From a virus: DNA of 27,479 nucleotides. A model generated the notes under the pieces. That model was not told the origin of the DNA. It ran no database searches and was given only the letters and a program-made list of their open reading frames with translations. Shown here one piece after another: positions 4,081 through 7,266 of this stretch. Location: UHGV virus genome UHGV-0150478; one strand, written 5' to 3'. Made by a program: the position numbers and the translations under genes. Each line of letters begins with the position of its first letter. Position 1 is the first letter of the stretch.

Positions 4081-4284
4081 TTAGCTGTTAGCCAAAGCGT
4101 CTTTTAACATCGCCACAAGGTTTACTTCAGGCTTTTCCATTTTGGCGCGTTTGGGGCGGATAATAATTCGACCGTCAGCCAACATCTTTTTGCATGTATT
4201 AAGAGGGATACCTGTTATCTCTGCATATTTCTGCAGGGATACATAGGGGGCATTCACATTGATATTGATGGTTATACCTGACAT
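4081..4284 (-). CDS. Small HTH DNA-binding protein (AlpA/excisionase-like or CII-like regulator)
   Basis: 67 aa; segment VSLQKYAEITGIPLNTCKKMLADGRI is a typical helix-turn-helix; second gene of the early operon. Confidence 0.45.
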   Translation of the reverse strand: MSGITININVNAPYVSLQKYAEITGIPLNTCKKMLADGRIIIRPKRAKMEKPEVNLVAMLKDALANS

Positions 4285-4300
4285 CCCACTAGCCTCCTGA

Positions 4301-4507
4301 TCAGGAAGATTTGTTTTGTTCTTTCTGGGTTAGCTCTAGGCCGCGAAGGAAGATCATGCGCGCCATGTTAGAGGATGAGCGTTGTTCTTTAGCTGCCATT
4401 TCATCAATGACGGCTCGCTCCTCGAGGGACAGCCGAAGTGCCAGTCTTGGACCTGTGGCGGTGTTACGCGGAATGCGTGATCTGGTATCGTGAAGAACTT
4501 GTTTCAT
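4301..4507 (-). CDS. Ribbon-helix-helix (Arc/MetJ/CopG-like) protein; positional analogue of P2 Cox / 186 Apl
   Basis: 68 aa; RLSLEERAVIDEMAAKEQRSSSNMARMIFLRGLE matches the RHH beta-strand plus two helices pattern; first gene of the leftward operon, divergent from the repressor gene. Confidence 0.5.
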   Translation of the reverse strand: MKQVLHDTRSRIPRNTATGPRLALRLSLEERAVIDEMAAKEQRSSSNMARMIFLRGLELTQKEQNKSS

Positions 4508-4582
4508 AGTGGTATATTGTGATCATCTAATAGCTCGTGAAATCATTTTGGTATCAAAAAAGATACCTGTCAAGGTTTTTGT
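4508..4582. promoter_or_regulatory. Divergent promoter/operator switch region
   Basis: 75-bp intergenic between divergent RHH and XRE genes. Inverted repeat GGTATC-A6-GATACC at 4550-4567, extra TGGTAT at 4510-4515, and minus-strand TTGACA at 4573..4568 with CAAAAT 17 nt downstream. Promoter assignment is by eye only. Confidence 0.4.
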
Positions 4583-4987
4583 ATGAAAAATGATATTGGT
4601 CAGCGGTTGCGTGAGGAAAGGGAAAGATTGGGACTTAGTCAAGTTGCCATGAGCGACATTGGTGGAGTCAAAAAGCTAACTCAGCTTAGATATGAGAAAG
4701 GAGATAGCTTTCCTGATGCTGCGTATTTGGCAGCGCTGTCTCGTTTTGGCCTTGATGTTCAGTATGTTGTGTTGGGAATTCACTCACCTGAAACTTATAA
4801 CGATGATGAGCAGGAATTGATTACTCGCTTTCGAGCAGCTTCGTTAGATGTGAAAAACGCGGTGATTGGGGCTTTAAAAGGTGCGATCAGTGAAAAGGAA
4901 ACTCAGCCATCAGGACGTGAGTTAAATATTTCTGGTGGTAATAACCGTATCGCTGGTCGTGACTATAACGAAACTAAGGGTAGGTGA
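4583..4987 (+). CDS. XRE-family HTH transcriptional repressor (immunity repressor candidate, C/cI position)
   Basis: N-terminus QRLREERERLGLSQVAMSDIGGVKKLTQLRYEKG is a classic Cro/C1-type HTH; first gene of the rightward operon that ends with int, as C in P2. Confidence 0.65.
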   Translation: MKNDIGQRLREERERLGLSQVAMSDIGGVKKLTQLRYEKGDSFPDAAYLAALSRFGLDVQYVVLGIHSPETYNDDEQELITRFRAASLDVKNAVIGALKGAISEKETQPSGRELNISGGNNRIAGRDYNETKGR

Positions 4988-5002
4988 TAGTAGGGAGGTG
5001 AC

Positions 5003-5653
5003 ATGGCCGTCAACTCAAACGGTTCAAACAATCGCGTTGCTGGGCGTGATTTTCACGAAAAGAATATTCAGATAGAGCGATATGATGGTTCTCATACCGT
5101 CAATATCGCAATCCCTTCGAATAATGATGATGACGATCGCCCTTTGCTTAAGGCTCAGCGTAAGGAGCTAAATAGCTTGGTTGCTGCTATTGCAGAAGCT
5201 AGCAATACTGAAGCGTTTATTATTTGGCAAAAAGTACATGCGGAGATTGGTGTAGCTGGTATTGATGATATGACAGTAAATCAATATAAAACAGCGGAGA
5301 GTTTTCTGCATGCAATGCTTGAGCGATGTAAAGATCATGATGCCTGTAAGGCTCTTGTAAGTTTATTACTACGTAACAGTGAAGACTGTGGACTTCGACA
5401 AAAACTTCTGCGGTATTGCCATATCAATTTCGGTACAGGACGTTTAAACGATCTTACTCGTTCTCAGTTACAGTCTGCATTGTCGTGGTTAGAGCAACAA
5501 TCGGCATCAAGCCACACAGAGAGTTCGACCTTACCAGAAGTCCGACTTCGTGCTTCAGAATTAATCCGACTTTATCCAAAAGAAATAATATTCTTTATCT
5601 GCGTAGGGGTTTTGGTAGGCGGTGTCATTTCTAGGGCGTTTTTTAATTTGTAA
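5003..5653 (+). CDS. Tail-anchored membrane protein, unknown function (cargo gene)
   Basis: 216 aa; single C-terminal hydrophobic helix (EIIFFICVGVLVGGVISRAFF); N-terminus repeats a motif from the C-terminus of the upstream repressor-like protein; AT-richer than flanking genes. Confidence 0.55.
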   Translation: MAVNSNGSNNRVAGRDFHEKNIQIERYDGSHTVNIAIPSNNDDDDRPLLKAQRKELNSLVAAIAEASNTEAFIIWQKVHAEIGVAGIDDMTVNQYKTAESFLHAMLERCKDHDACKALVSLLLRNSEDCGLRQKLLRYCHINFGTGRLNDLTRSQLQSALSWLEQQSASSHTESSTLPEVRLRASELIRLYPKEIIFFICVGVLVGGVISRAFFNL

Positions 5654-5682: not shown

Positions 5683-6030
5683 ATGAAAGTAAAAAAGGTT
5701 CAACTATTAGTTACTTTTTTATCTATGTTTTCTTTTTCCGCCGTCGCAATGCCTTTTAAAACTATTGAACGTGAGAGTTTCAATGGGGTATGGCCATTTA
5801 ATACTGATGAGGTTCAATTACAGTGTCTTGATGGTAATCCTTATGTGATGAATTTTGACGATAATAAGTTATATGCACTTACAGGTTTGGCTCGAATAAA
5901 AGGTAAAACATTTGGTGCGTTACCGTTAGATAACAATAATCCATTTTGGCTAGATAATGATGCCGCCCCAGGGTTAAAAAAGAGTCTGGGGGATGTCACT
6001 AAGGCTGCATTTGATTTATGTGATAAGTAA
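5683..6030 (+). CDS. Secreted/periplasmic small protein, unknown function (cargo gene)
   Basis: 115 aa; N-terminal signal peptide (MKVKKVQLLVTFLSMFSFSAVA, AxA-type cleavage site); two Cys in the mature part; AT-rich. Confidence 0.55.
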   Translation: MKVKKVQLLVTFLSMFSFSAVAMPFKTIERESFNGVWPFNTDEVQLQCLDGNPYVMNFDDNKLYALTGLARIKGKTFGALPLDNNNPFWLDNDAAPGLKKSLGDVTKAAFDLCDK

Positions 6031-6035
6031 CTAAA

Positions 6036-7037
6036 ATGTCGGTTCGTAAGATTCCATCAGGTAAATGGCTTTGCGAATGTTATCCCTACGGGGCATCGGG
6101 AAAACGCATTCGTAAACAGTTTGCGACAAAAAGTGAGGCGCTCTCTTATGAGCGCCGTTTAATGAATAGTAGAGTTGGAGACGAGTTTCAAGATGGTTCT
6201 GGTCCTCGTCTTTCTGAGTTGATTGCTCGCTGGTTTGAGATGTACGGTAAAACCTTGTCCTCTGGTGCAGAGCGCAAAGTCAAACTTGAGGCGATTTGTT
6301 CCAGGCTGGGAGATCCATTTGCTTCTCAGTTTGACAAAAATATGTTTGCTACTTATCGGGAAAGAAGGCTATCAGGAGAATGGAATCCCAAGGGGAAGAA
6401 AAAACTTAGTGAAGCAACCGTTAATCGCGAGCAGTCATATCTACATGCTGTTTTTGCCGAACTGAAGCGCCTTGGAGAGTGGTCTGGTGAAAACCCCCTG
6501 ACCGGTATTCGCAAGTTTCGTGAGGAAGAAAAGGAACTGGCGTTTCTGTATGTAGATGAGATTGAACGCCTTCTGATTGCGTGTGATGAGTCACGGAATA
6601 AAGATTTGGGGGTTGTTGTCCGTATTGGGCTTGCGACTGGTGCTCGGTGGAGTGAAGCAGAAGGATTAAAGCAATCTCAAGTACTGCCCGGTCGAATCAC
6701 ATTTGTTAAAACTAAAGGAAAGAAGAACCGCACTGTACCGATTTCACCTCAATTGCAAGCTATGCTTCCTAAAAAACGAGGAGCGCTATTTTCACCATGT
6801 TATGAGGCTTTTGACGCTGCAATTAAGAGAGCGAAGATCGAGCTTCCTGATGGGCAATTAACTCATGTGCTACGTCACACGTTTGCCAGTCATTTTATGA
6901 TGCGGGGCGGAAATATTCTTGTGTTGCAAAAAATACTGGGGCATAGCGATATAAAAATGACTATGCGTTATGCGCATTTTGCTCCAGGTCATTTAGAGGC
7001 TGCTGTTGAATTGAACCCTTTTGACAATAGAGGGTAA
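6036..7037 (+). CDS. int: Tyrosine recombinase, P2-family phage integrase
   Basis: 333 aa; conserved blocks GARWSEAEGLK, ITFVKTKGKKNRTVPIS, HVLRHTFASHFMMRGGNILVLQKILGHSDIKMTMRYAHFAP (R...HxxR...Y catalytic signature) align with recalled P2 Int; adjacent to att core. Confidence 0.9.
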   Translation: MSVRKIPSGKWLCECYPYGASGKRIRKQFATKSEALSYERRLMNSRVGDEFQDGSGPRLSELIARWFEMYGKTLSSGAERKVKLEAICSRLGDPFASQFDKNMFATYRERRLSGEWNPKGKKKLSEATVNREQSYLHAVFAELKRLGEWSGENPLTGIRKFREEEKELAFLYVDEIERLLIACDESRNKDLGVVVRIGLATGARWSEAEGLKQSQVLPGRITFVKTKGKKNRTVPISPQLQAMLPKKRGALFSPCYEAFDAAIKRAKIELPDGQLTHVLRHTFASHFMMRGGNILVLQKILGHSDIKMTMRYAHFAPGHLEAAVELNPFDNRG

Positions 7038-7198: not shown

Positions 7199-7241
7199 TG
7201 GGAAAGATAAGAATAAAATCAAAGCAATAAGCAGTGTCGTG

Positions 7242-7266
7242 AAACCACCTTCGGGTGGTTTTTTTG
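7242..7266 (+). terminator. Intrinsic terminator downstream of the tRNA fragment
   Basis: 8-bp stem AAACCACC/GGTGGTTT with TTCG tetraloop (7242-7261) followed by T-run to 7265. Confidence 0.6.

What the first reader, a model, noticed from the sequence alone, without database searches (positions are those of the whole stretch)
4934..5059. Conserved 13-residue motif shared by the repressor C-terminus and the next protein's N-terminus
The last residues of the XRE-type protein (GGNNRIAGRDYNE, 4934-4972) and residues 7-19 of the downstream membrane protein (GSNNRVAGRDFHE, 5021-5059) are the same motif. At nucleotide level the copies differ at many synonymous positions (ggt ggt aat aac cgt atc gct ggt cgt gac tat aac gaa versus ggt tca aac aat cgc gtt gct ggg cgt gat ttt cac gaa), which suggests the peptide rather than the DNA is conserved. 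This could be a shared interaction, degradation or cleavage tag coupling repressor status to the cargo protein.
Basis: seen in the sequence. Interest (0 to 1): 0.6.

Follow-up and report, generated by a model that had tools for sequence, protein, structure and literature searches.

The report
Repressor tail matches membrane partner's start
A prophage repressor ends with the same short peptide that begins the membrane protein encoded next to it. This matched pair recurs and co-varies across many unrelated prophages, which suggests an undescribed physical link between the lysogeny switch and the cell membrane.

Summary
The similarity spans 17 residues: repressor residues 114-130 (LNISGGNNRIAGRDYNE) against partner residues 3-19 (VNSNGSNNRVAGRDFHE). 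It is the only similarity between the two proteins (BLASTP E=2e-5).

The locus is the lysogeny operon of a P2-like Xuanwuvirus prophage: XRE repressor, Flk_N-domain tail-anchored membrane protein, DUF2511 protein, integrase. It occurs in 525 of 5426 complete E. coli genomes.

- **Location.** Both motifs lie in termini that AlphaFold2 models with low confidence.
- **Conservation.** In the repressor the motif is as conserved as the DNA-binding domain; the linker before it is not.
- **Covariation.** In P2-like and Mu-like prophages of many Proteobacteria the tail motif differs (15 classes), and the next gene's N-terminus matches its own repressor (0/20000 permutations).
- **Not a DNA duplication.** Synonymous codons show no excess identity.
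- **Independence.** Matching holds across phage backbone, HTH family and partner body, and a natural swap confirms it.
- **Specificity.** A motif-only profile against 1.84 billion proteins hit only extreme termini, apart from three repeat proteins.

The best reading is a co-evolving homotypic pairing motif linking repressor and membrane, most like amyloid-signalling motif pairs. The binding and its functional consequence are untested.

The parts
4583..4987 (+). XRE-family HTH repressor gene (134 aa). It is the first gene of the lysogeny operon and is divergent from the Arc-like/Cox-like early operon.
   Evidence: ORF. HTH_31/HTH_3 hits and PHROG repressor families. Weak RstR/DicA hits. The AF2 model has an HTH at 5-64, helices at 74-102 and a low-confidence tail at 106-134.
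4922..4972 (+). Motif copy 1: repressor residues 114-130, LNISGGNNRIAGRDYNE, in the low-confidence C-terminal tail.
   Evidence: Column conservation is 0.81 in 51 homologues, against 0.29 for the preceding linker. pLDDT is below 50.
4973..4993 (+). Basic end of the tail (TKGR) followed by three consecutive in-frame stops, TGA TAG TAG.
   Evidence: Sequence. A K/R-rich end after the motif is seen in nearly all homologous tails.
4993..4999 (+). Shine-Dalgarno-like GGGAGGT, 3 nt before the partner's ATG. It fixes the partner's N-terminus.
   Evidence: Sequence.
5003..5653 (+). Partner gene: a 216-aa tail-anchored inner-membrane protein of the Flk_N family.
   Evidence: ORF. phrog_5825 E=4e-103. 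NCBIfam Flk model E=8.6e-16 over residues 37-166. PF27202 Flk_N. AF2 model.
5009..5059 (+). Motif copy 2: partner residues 3-19, VNSNGSNNRVAGRDFHE, in the low-confidence N-terminus, which is inferred to be cytoplasmic.
   Evidence: G7, N10, R11, D16 and E19 are invariant in 34 homologues. pLDDT is about 46-51.
5111..5500 (+). Flk_N helical domain of the partner (residues 37-166). It contains a three-helix bundle resembling the NinB C-terminal domain and the Red-beta C-terminal domain.
5576..5647 (+). C-terminal transmembrane anchor of the partner (residues 192-215).
   Evidence: Hydrophobic segment 187-205. AF2 helix 192-215.
5683..6030 (+). DUF2511 protein with an N-terminal hydrophobic leader that looks like a signal peptide (my reading of the sequence, not predicted). 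It is the third gene of the operon. In other loci this position holds a lipoprotein or periplasmic protein.
6036..7037 (+). Tyrosine integrase, the last gene of the operon.
7241..7262 (+). The first terminator-like hairpin after the operon. None was found between the repressor gene and the integrase.
4508..4582 (.). Divergent control region. It holds the perfect palindrome GGTATCAAAAAAGATACC (4550-4567), the direct repeat TCATnnTGGTAT (4504-4515 and 4543-4554), and a sigma-70-like promoter on the minus strand (4573-4545).
   Evidence: Sequence.
4081..4507 (-). Early operon start: Arc-like repressor (4301-4507) and Cox-like excisionase/repressor (4081-4284).
   Evidence: annotation of phage 520873.

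Best explanation
The two copies are the two halves of a co-evolving, homotypic pairing motif.

**Anatomy.** One half sits in the low-confidence (probably disordered) C-terminal tail of the prophage's XRE-type immunity repressor. The other sits in the low-confidence N-terminus of the membrane protein translated from the next gene of the same operon; that N-terminus is inferred to be cytoplasmic. Each half is a 17-25 residue stretch rich in G and N and poor in L and P. Its pattern of alternating hydrophobic residues and glycine turns would suit short beta-strands.

**Proposed mechanism (inferred).** The repressor tail pairs with the partner's N-terminus by beta-strand or beta-arch pairing, possibly stacking as cross-beta. 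This physically couples the repressor to the inner membrane.

**Likely consequence (inferred).** Across loci the only constant properties of the partner are 'presents the matching motif' and, in 24 of the 25 inspected, 'sits in the membrane'. The most likely consequence is therefore regulated recruitment or sequestration of the repressor at the membrane. That would be a membrane-anchored anti-repressor or sensor giving an SOS-independent input to the lysis-lysogeny switch. The variable partner bodies (Flk_N domain, coiled coil plus periplasmic Cys domain, zinc ribbon, small multi-TM proteins) would act as the regulatory or sensing parts. Distinct motif classes would keep co-resident prophages from cross-talking.

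**Shown here:** the motif pair, its terminal position, its conservation, its covariation, and its independence of phage backbone, HTH family and partner body.

**Inferred only:** direct binding, beta-type structure, membrane recruitment, and the effect on repression.
For: 1. **Specific similarity.** It is confined to the motif (BLASTP E=2e-5).
2. **Low-confidence termini.** Both motifs lie in terminal regions with pLDDT of about 50 or lower, next to well-folded domains.
3. **Purifying selection.** In the repressor, motif conservation is 0.81, the linker 0.29 and the HTH 0.79 across 51 homologues. In the partner, G7, N10, R11, D16 and E19 are invariant.
4. **Covariation.** There are 15 motif classes. 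The mean cognate score is 45.2 against 23.5 for non-cognate pairs. The cognate is top-ranked in 10/15 and 12/15 comparisons, and 0 of 20000 permutations reach the observed sum.
5. **Unbiased scan.** A six-frame scan of ±3 kb places the best match to the tail within 200 nt downstream on the same strand in 52 of 95 distinct tails. Chance is about 1.7% per locus. Most failures are tails without such a motif.
6. **No DNA homogenisation.** 98 of 205 identical residues use the same codon, against 93 expected.
7. **Natural swap.** L001 and L132 have repressor cores 96% identical and transposases 90% identical. Their tail classes differ (GQFAGNQIINN against NNRVAGRDY) and their partner bodies are unrelated (Flk_N+TM against CxxC+2TM). 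Each partner N-terminus still matches its own tail.
8. **A second HTH family.** Phage_CI_repr repressors (PF07022) carry the same tail and the same matched partners.
9. **Library-wide specificity.** A motif-only profile against 1.84e9 proteins gave 46 hits. All 43 single-stretch hits lie at residue 2-4 or within about 7 residues of the C-terminus. All 37 retrieved sequences fit the pattern: C-terminal carriers are HTH regulators or fragments of them, and N-terminal carriers are Flk_N-type or CxxC-type proteins or fragments of them.
10. **Membrane location.** 24 of 25 inspected partners have a hydrophobic TM-like segment and no N-terminal signal sequence.
11. **Composition.** N is enriched 3.9-fold and G 2.4-fold. 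L is at 0.11-fold, P at 0.25-fold and K at 0.53-fold. This resembles the reported composition of bacterial amyloid signalling motifs (10.1101/2020.01.06.895854, section 9).
12. **Precedent.** Bab/Agp in E. coli prophage hotspots is an adjacent-gene pair sharing a motif between a C-terminus and an N-terminus that signals by direct templating (10.1101/2024.11.07.622273).
Against: - No binding, co-fold or localisation data exist.
- The two motifs are less than 100 nt apart in the DNA, so they are always inherited together. Linkage explains co-inheritance but not resemblance, so part of the covariation signal is not independent evidence.
- Discrimination among some related classes is weak. Examples are the three Gilliamella classes and the FHGxVGQ classes, where cross-scores equal or exceed cognate scores.
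- Constitutive co-expression of a repressor and its sequestrator in one operon needs an extra, unknown regulatory step.
- One partner (L063) shows no transmembrane segment.
- The conserved core is shorter than typical amyloid signalling motifs (about 25 aa), and Q is barely enriched (1.14-fold).
Confidence: 0.5

Rival explanations
1. The binding is direct, but control runs the other way. The membrane partner is an effector, such as a toxin, a pore or holin-like protein, or an exclusion protein. The repressor tail keeps it inactive, as in toxin-antitoxin logic with an XRE antitoxin, or triggers it by templating, as Agp triggers Bab. Loss or titration of the repressor would then be coupled to membrane damage or abortive infection.
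For: - XRE HTH proteins with disordered C-terminal neutralising tails are the standard architecture of type II antitoxins (established knowledge; weak MqsA and HipB-family hits).
- Many partners are small 2-3 TM proteins.
- In Bab/Agp the C-terminal-motif protein is the membrane-targeting effector and the system lies in prophage hotspots (10.1101/2024.11.07.622273).
- Lambda cI-rexA-rexB shows that membrane exclusion functions are co-transcribed with repressors (PMC11077077 abstract).
Against: - No partner type matches any toxin, defence or pore family in Pfam or PADLOC.
- Here the C-terminal-motif protein is the DNA-binding repressor, not the membrane protein. This is the reverse of the Bell/Bab arrangement.
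- Large Flk_N and periplasmic-domain partners look more like regulators or sensors than toxins.
Confidence: 0.2
2. Competitive mimicry, as with SinI and SinR. The tail motif normally docks on the folded part of the repressor, in cis or between dimers, to build cooperative oligomers. The partner's N-terminus imitates it and competes for the same site. The two motifs would resemble each other because they share a receptor on the repressor, not because they pair with each other.
For: - The motif always follows a conserved two-helix module (DE.ELL..YR.A....K.A.LA.LTGG), even in different HTH families. That module could be the receptor.
- SinI/SinR is a precedent for an adjacent-gene antagonist sharing the repressor's multimerisation element (established knowledge).
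Against: - L001 and L132 repressor cores, including the helical module, are 96% identical, yet they carry different motif classes, each matched by its partner.
- The three Gilliamella repressors (88-95% identical cores) also carry different tails.
- A shared receptor should have co-varied with the motif.
Confidence: 0.12
3. Both motifs are tags read by a common third party, such as a host protease or adaptor, a chaperone, the membrane, or a phage factor. The two proteins would be co-regulated (degraded, cleaved or localised together) without touching each other.
For: - The motif is a conserved linear motif at an extreme terminus in a low-confidence region, which is typical of degrons.
- The Mu repressor is known to be controlled through its C-terminus by ClpXP (established knowledge).
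- A K/R-rich end follows the motif in repressor tails.
Against: - Very different classes occur in closely related hosts and on near-identical phage backbones, each matched within the pair. A host reader would impose one motif per host.
- The same class occurs on unrelated backbones, P2-like and Mu-like, that share only the cassette. This leaves no obvious phage-encoded reader outside it.
- No third copy or obvious reader is present in the window.
Confidence: 0.1
4. A neutral relic. A short tandem duplication across the gene boundary has no function and has not yet decayed.
For: The two copies lie only 87 nt apart, and in this window they are in the same reading frame.
Against: - Synonymous sites are randomised.
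- The motif is as conserved as the HTH, while the adjacent linker is free to vary.
- The pairing recurs in 15 classes, two HTH families and several partner families.
- The reading-frame relation is not conserved between loci (gaps).
Confidence: 0.02

Closest known systems
Amyloid signalling motif pairs (fungal HET-s/NWD2; bacterial BASS1-11, e.g. Bab/Agp of E. coli prophage hotspots)
   Same: - A short motif is shared between the C-terminus of one protein and the N-terminus of the protein encoded by the adjacent gene.
- Composition is rich in G and N and poor in L, P and K.
- Many sequence-distinct motif classes exist, each matched within its own gene pair.
- The context is phage or prophage.
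- One of the two proteins acts at the membrane.
   Different: - The carriers are an HTH immunity repressor and a membrane protein, not an NLR/STAND or TPR sensor plus a Bell/HeLo-type death effector.
- The membrane protein carries the N-terminal copy. In Bab/Agp the membrane-targeting effector carries the C-terminal copy.
- The conserved core is shorter (17-25 aa), and Q is barely enriched.
- Fibril formation and templating are untested.
- No match to a known BASS family was tested.
SinR/SinI (and SlrR/SlrA) of Bacillus subtilis
   Same: An XRE-type repressor shares its C-terminal interaction element with the product of the adjacent gene, which antagonises it by heteromer formation.
   Different: - In SinR/SinI the shared element is a folded helical-hook domain and the antagonist is a small soluble protein.
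- Here the shared element is a linear G/N-rich motif in a low-confidence region, and the partner is membrane-anchored.
ECF sigma / membrane anti-sigma operons, and membrane sequestration of regulators (e.g. Mlc by PtsG)
   Same: - The operon order is regulator first, then a membrane protein whose cytoplasmic N-terminus would bind it.
- Some partners have a single TM and a periplasmic domain suited to sensing.
   Different: There is no sequence or fold relation. The proposed binding is through a matched linear motif rather than an anti-sigma domain. This is an analogy only.
Lambda cI-rexA-rexB; Qtip-type sequestering antirepressors
   Same: - Membrane-linked accessory genes are co-transcribed with the immunity repressor and can bias the switch (PMC11077077 abstract).
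- Repressors can be inactivated by sequestration or aggregation rather than cleavage (established knowledge of Qtip from phage VP882).
   Different: There is no homology, and those systems have no shared terminal motif.
Flk (flagella biosynthesis regulator) of Salmonella/E. coli
   Same: The partner has the Flk N-terminal helical domain and a C-terminal membrane anchor.
   Different: - The score is far below the equivalog cut-off (58 against 353 bits).
- The phage proteins add the N-terminal motif and are encoded next to a repressor.
- The Flk_N domain is dispensable for the pairing rule, because other partner types lack it.

Membership tests
Amyloid signalling motifs (BASS/FASS type) | The same short motif sits at the C-terminus of one protein and the N-terminus of the product of the adjacent gene. 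| tested here: met
   A library-wide search found the motif only at extreme termini.
Amyloid signalling motifs (BASS/FASS type) | Length of about 20-25 aa. Composition enriched in G/N/Q and beta-branched residues and depleted in P, L and K. | tested here: inconclusive
   N is 3.9-fold and G 2.4-fold enriched, V 1.3-fold. L is at 0.11-fold, P at 0.25-fold and K at 0.53-fold. Q is only 1.14-fold and I 0.91-fold. Aligned cores are 8-25 aa, typically 15-20. The comparison is with section 9 of 10.1101/2020.01.06.895854.
Amyloid signalling motifs (BASS/FASS type) | The carriers are an oligomerising sensor (NLR/STAND, TPR and similar) and a cell-death effector (Bell, HeLo, Bab and similar). | tested here: not met
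   The carriers are HTH repressors (XRE or Phage_CI_repr) and uncharacterised membrane proteins. There are no NLR, Bell or defence-family hits.
Amyloid signalling motifs (BASS/FASS type) | The motif forms cross-beta fibrils and transmits its fold by templating. | not testable with these tools
   This needs peptide fibrillation, ThT/Congo red binding, EM or ssNMR, and foci assays. Monomer AF2 gives low confidence for both motifs.
Amyloid signalling motifs (BASS/FASS type) | Sequence match to one of the described families BASS1-11. | not tested
   No BASS profiles were available. Pfam gave no motif-family hit on either protein.
Flk (NF007987 equivalog) | Full-length match above the curated cut-off. 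| tested here: not met
   58.1 bits against a cut-off of 353. Only residues 37-166 match profile positions 20-149.
Flk_N domain proteins (PF27202) | Presence of the Flk N-terminal helical domain. | tested here: met
   Precomputed PF27202 on homologues and neighbours. NCBIfam Flk E=8.6e-16. Confident helical model for residues 45-172.
Type II toxin-antitoxin pair with XRE antitoxin | The adjacent gene encodes a recognisable toxin family. | tested here: not met
   No toxin or defence family matched any partner type. Unknown toxins cannot be excluded.
P2-like (Peduoviridae) immunity region | A repressor gene divergent from a cox-type early operon and co-oriented with the integrase. | tested here: met
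   97.9% identity to Escherichia phage 520873, a Xuanwuvirus. Repressor function itself is inferred from position and family.
SinI/SinR-type antagonism | The shared element is a folded helical multimerisation domain. | tested here: not met
   The shared element is a low-confidence G/N-rich linear motif outside the helical module.

The most novel reading that the evidence does not exclude
The motif is a genuine prion-like (cross-beta) signalling sequence. A membrane-anchored sensor would use its N-terminal copy to template the immunity repressor's tail into an inactive, self-propagating assembly. This would give temperate phages an SOS-independent, switch-like and possibly heritable route from an envelope signal to prophage induction or immunity state. 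Orthogonal motif classes would insulate co-resident prophages. It would extend amyloid signalling from cell-death execution to transcriptional control of a genetic switch.
Probability: 0.15. Interest if true: 0.95.

Novelty: new variant of a known kind. Interest (0 to 1): 0.78.

Why it matters
How temperate phages without LexA-like self-cleaving repressors decide to induce is a long-standing gap. This applies to many Mu-like and P2-like phages.

A conserved, co-evolving peptide link between the immunity repressor and a co-transcribed membrane protein would give a concrete and testable route from the cell envelope to the lysogeny switch. Some of these membrane proteins carry periplasmic domains.

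The rule holds across two phage lifestyles, at least two HTH families and several partner families in Gamma- and Betaproteobacteria. It therefore looks like a general module rather than a curiosity.

The formal resemblance to amyloid-signalling motif pairs raises the possibility that templated assembly controls transcription factors, not only death effectors.

The E. coli version is present in about 10% of complete genomes, so genetics is straightforward.

Tried and rejected
- **Co-folding.** I tried to co-fold the two proteins by translating across the natural in-frame junction (window:4583-5650). 
- **Pfam.** The local copy does not contain Flk_N, and its hits on the partner (zf-P11, ELYS) fall below their cut-offs. 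I disregarded them.
- **Third copy.** A regular-expression search for a third motif copy in all six frames of the window found none in a real ORF.
- **tRNA.** The scan found nothing.
- **Defence and toxin families.** PADLOC and Pfam on six partner types gave no credible family. The hits were PDC-S64 at 19.7 bits and LmuB at 15 bits in coiled-coil regions.
- **Literature.** Seven searches covered amyloid signalling with XRE or prophage, Flk with prophage or repressor, Mu-like repressors with membrane sequestration, and membrane-tethered immunity repressors. None described this pairing. The P. aeruginosa LfsT paper (PMC9769523) concerns a different question.
- **Read-through or frameshift fusion.** I considered and rejected this. 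The frame relation and spacing vary between loci, from -4 to +34 nt in most and larger in a few.
- **Flk_N as receptor for the tail.** I considered and rejected this. Partners without Flk_N obey the same rule.
Full report
**Observation.** ORF 4583-4987 (134 aa) ends ...LNISGGNNRIAGRDYNETKGR. ORF 5003-5653 (216 aa) begins MAVNSNGSNNRVAGRDFHEKNIQ.... BLASTP of the two proteins aligns only this stretch. It covers 17 residues, 114-130 against 3-19, with 10 identical and 15 positive, E=2e-5. The 51 nt are 59% identical. Codon choice at identical residues is at the random expectation, 4 of 10 the same against 4.3 expected. No third copy exists in the window.

**Context.** The locus is the lysogeny switch of a P2-like prophage.
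- On the minus strand lie an Arc-like gene (4301-4507) and a Cox-like gene (4081-4284).
- On the plus strand lie the XRE regulator, the membrane protein, a DUF2511 protein and a tyrosine integrase.
- No terminator-like site appears before 7241-7262.
- The region is 97.9% identical to Escherichia phage 520873 (Peduoviridae, Xuanwuvirus). It is present in 525 of 5426 complete E. coli genomes.
- The partner's start codon follows a strong GGGAGGT Shine-Dalgarno-like sequence, so its N-terminus is well defined.

**The two proteins.**
- AlphaFold2 models the repressor as an HTH (5-64) plus two helices (74-102), followed by a low-confidence tail (106-134) that holds the motif.
- The partner has a low-confidence N-terminus (1-44) and a confident helical domain (45-172, pLDDT about 90). 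A C-terminal transmembrane helix spans 192-215.
- The helical domain is the Flk N-terminal domain. The NCBIfam Flk model gives E=8.6e-16, far below its equivalog cut-off, and PF27202 appears in the precomputed tables.
- The protein has no N-terminal signal sequence and a single C-terminal anchor. Its N-terminus, and therefore the motif, should face the cytoplasm. This is an inference.

**Conservation.**
- All 120 listed homologues of the partner begin with MxVNSxGxxNRxxGRDFxE.... G7, N10, R11, D16 and E19 are invariant in a 34-sequence alignment.
- Most close homologues of the repressor end with ...INVSGxGNRxAGRDYNENKK.
- In 51 such repressors, mean column conservation is 0.79 in the HTH, 0.70 in the helices, 0.29 in the linker and 0.81 in the motif. 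The motif is an island of purifying selection inside a variable tail.

**Covariation, the key result.** More distant homologues of the repressor carry different G/N/Q-rich tails. I fetched their loci. In each case the N-terminus of the very next ORF resembles its own repressor's tail:

| Locus | Host | Repressor tail | Partner N-terminus |
|---|---|---|---|
| L001 | Pectobacterium | QIFNGDISGQFAGNQIIN | QEFNGTAQGQFSSRDIIN |
| L023 | Jeongeupia | TVDYGNAQIGQASAGDIVN | TVSFGGAQIDQAAAGDINN |
| L150 | – | QVFHGAVSGGVAARDIIN | QEFQGNVDGGVAGRDIVN |
| L034 | Ectopseudomonas | QQFNGPVGSVTSGDVVN | QQFNGAVEQVAAGDIKN |

Aeromonas, Bordetella, Burkholderia, Cellvibrio, Stutzerimonas, Gilliamella and others behave the same way.
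- After clustering into 15 motif classes, cognate pairs score 45.2 on average against 23.5 for non-cognate pairs.
- The cognate is the best partner in 10 of 15 comparisons (tail to N-terminus) and 12 of 15 (N-terminus to tail).
- None of 20000 permutations reaches the observed sum.
- An unbiased six-frame scan of ±3 kb puts the best match to the tail within 200 nt downstream on the same strand in 52 of 95 distinct tails. Chance is about 1.7% each.
- Most of the failures are tails with no such motif. Many of them are Pseudomonas loci in which the gene after the XRE gene is a response regulator.
- Across 23 representative pairs, 98 of 205 identical residues use the same codon against 93 expected. 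The resemblance is therefore maintained at the peptide level, not by gene conversion.

**What the matching depends on.** It is independent of everything except the two termini.
- The NRxAGRDY class occurs in P2-like phages with Flk_N partners. It also occurs in a Mu-like phage (L132) whose partner is a 118-aa CxxC plus 2-TM protein.
- L132 and L001 share a Mu-like backbone (transposase 90% identical) and repressor cores 96% identical over 100 residues. Their tail classes differ and their partner bodies are unrelated. Each partner still matches its own tail. This is in effect a natural swap experiment.
- The swap argues against both motifs docking on the repressor core, on the partner body, or on a backbone-encoded factor.
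- A second HTH family, Phage_CI_repr (PF07022), carries the same tail. It is followed by CxxC+TM, other TM, or Flk_N+TM proteins beginning ...GNGNRVAGRDY...GNNNRVAGRDY and ...GDSNRAAGRDY.
- In Cellvibrio L055, two consecutive downstream membrane genes both start with the motif.
- A 20-position motif-only profile searched against 1.84 billion representative proteins gave 46 hits at E≤1e-3. Three are multi-stretch repeat proteins.
- All 43 single-stretch hits place the motif at residue 2-4 or within about 7 residues of the C-terminus. I retrieved 37 of them.
- The C-terminal carriers are HTH regulators of several subfamilies, or C-terminal fragments of them. The N-terminal carriers are Flk_N-type or CxxC-type proteins, or fragments of them.

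**Partners.** Of 25 partners inspected, 24 have at least one hydrophobic transmembrane-like segment. They fall into three groups:
- Flk_N plus a C-terminal anchor.
- Longer proteins with a coiled coil, one TM and a periplasmic Cys-containing domain (CxFxGxxYxxGSI...C).
- Small 2-3 TM proteins, some with a zinc ribbon.

None matches a known toxin or defence family. The constant features are therefore 'presents the matching motif at a cytoplasmic N-terminus' and 'is in the membrane'.

**Mechanism.** The most economical reading is direct, homotypic pairing of the two low-confidence segments.
- Their composition is N 3.9-fold, G 2.4-fold, L 0.11-fold, P 0.25-fold and K 0.53-fold relative to the rest of the same proteins.
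- Their pattern is hydrophobic-x-hydrophobic-x-G...G-x-D-hydrophobic. This suits short strands joined by glycine turns.
- Composition and pattern resemble what is reported for bacterial amyloid signalling motifs (10.1101/2020.01.06.895854).
- The gene-pair logic is that of HET-s/NWD2 and of Bab/Agp in E. coli prophage hotspots, where direct templating between the two copies was shown experimentally (10.1101/2024.11.07.622273).
- I infer that the repressor is recruited to the membrane partner, and that this modulates repressor availability. The partner would act as a membrane-anchored anti-repressor or sensor.
- The direction of control, the trigger, and whether pairing is 1:1 or cross-beta stacking all remain open.

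**Rivals.**
- Direct binding with reversed direction of control, so that the repressor tail controls a membrane effector as in toxin-antitoxin or abortive-infection logic.
- SinI/SinR-like competition for a site on the repressor core. The L001/L132 swap weakens this.
- A shared tag read by a third party. This is weakened because different classes occur in closely related hosts and on near-identical backbones.
- A neutral duplication relic. effectively refute this.

**Comparison and novelty.**
- The system fails the membership test for amyloid signalling motif families on carrier type, because it has no NLR-like sensor and no Bell/HeLo effector. Fibril formation is untested.
- It is not Flk, not a recognisable toxin-antitoxin pair and not a SinI/SinR pair.
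- It works most like an amyloid-signalling-type matched-terminus pair, transplanted to a repressor and a membrane protein.
- Seven literature searches found no description of it.
- I rate it a new variant of a known kind, with high interest because it is general, specific and directly testable in E. coli.

**Limits.** There is no binding or structural evidence for the complex. The two motifs are tightly linked in the DNA. Some related classes cross-score as well as cognates do. The repressor role of the XRE protein is inferred from position and family.

Noticed in passing
window 4973-4984, and tails listed: Nearly every repressor tail ends in a short K/R-rich cluster right after the motif (TKGR, ENKK, SNKKNK, TTRRRKTK, GGKKK, GRKRKR). 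This could act as a charge 'gatekeeper' against self-aggregation, a contact with DNA or anionic lipid, or a degron.
   Followed up: no
window 4985-5005: The repressor gene ends with three consecutive stops (TGA TAG TAG). The partner ORF starts 15 nt after the first stop, in the same reading frame. The frame relation is not conserved in other loci, so read-through fusion seems unlikely.
   Followed up: partly
window 4504-4567: The divergent control region holds a perfect palindrome, GGTATCAAAAAAGATACC (4550-4567), and a direct repeat, TCATnnTGGTAT (4504-4515 and 4543-4554). These are candidate operators for the repressor or for the Arc/Cox-like proteins.
   Followed up: partly
window 7268-27479: Identity to the E. 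coli strain 631 prophage stops at about 7268, roughly 230 nt past the integrase. In strain 631 the host gene yecA follows. Here a different set of phage genes follows instead: an exonuclease fragment, a DnaB-like helicase, a head protease, a major head protein, a tail sheath and tail proteins. This suggests a second prophage in tandem or a mosaic.
   Followed up: partly
L023, L150, L137, L015, L049 and L151 (downstream partner genes): One partner class is 260-340 aa long. It has a coiled coil, one TM and a conserved periplasmic Cys-bracketed domain (C-x-F-x-G-x-x-Y-x-x-G-S-I-...-C) that Pfam does not recognise. This may be a sensing domain.
   Followed up: partly
L055 3411-4628: In a Cellvibrio Mu-like prophage, two consecutive membrane genes after the repressor both begin with the motif (VHQHFHQPVGVVAGRDVN and LTQEFNGNVGQVAGGNIYN). 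One repressor tail may therefore serve several partners.
   Followed up: partly
[not shown]
   Followed up: partly
L049, L150, L063 and L151 partner N-termini: In several partners the first motif is followed by one or two further G/N/V-rich strand-like units, for example ...GQAIQAGEANIADRSVNIRAGSIGSVAGRDIVNVNHG... This recalls the two pseudo-repeats of HET-s facing the single repeat of NWD2.
   Followed up: no
L167 2958-3188 (E. coli strain 631, same prophage type): The related prophage is annotated with a 'derepression protein' in its early region. The phage may therefore also have a conventional soluble anti-repressor. It carries no copy of the motif.
   Followed up: no
window 5683-6030; L003 4870-5256; L004 4999-5373; L169 4054-4560; L170 4134-4553: The gene after the partner usually encodes a protein with an N-terminal hydrophobic leader, in several loci followed by a Cys as in lipoproteins (here DUF2511). 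This is my reading of the sequences, not a prediction. It may belong to the same cassette, for example for exclusion or envelope sensing.
   Followed up: no
P0123, P0125, P0145: Some database variants of the E. coli repressor are frameshifted or truncated before the motif (13 member sequences for P0123). These natural tail-less alleles could be informative about whether the motif is needed for stable lysogeny.
   Followed up: no
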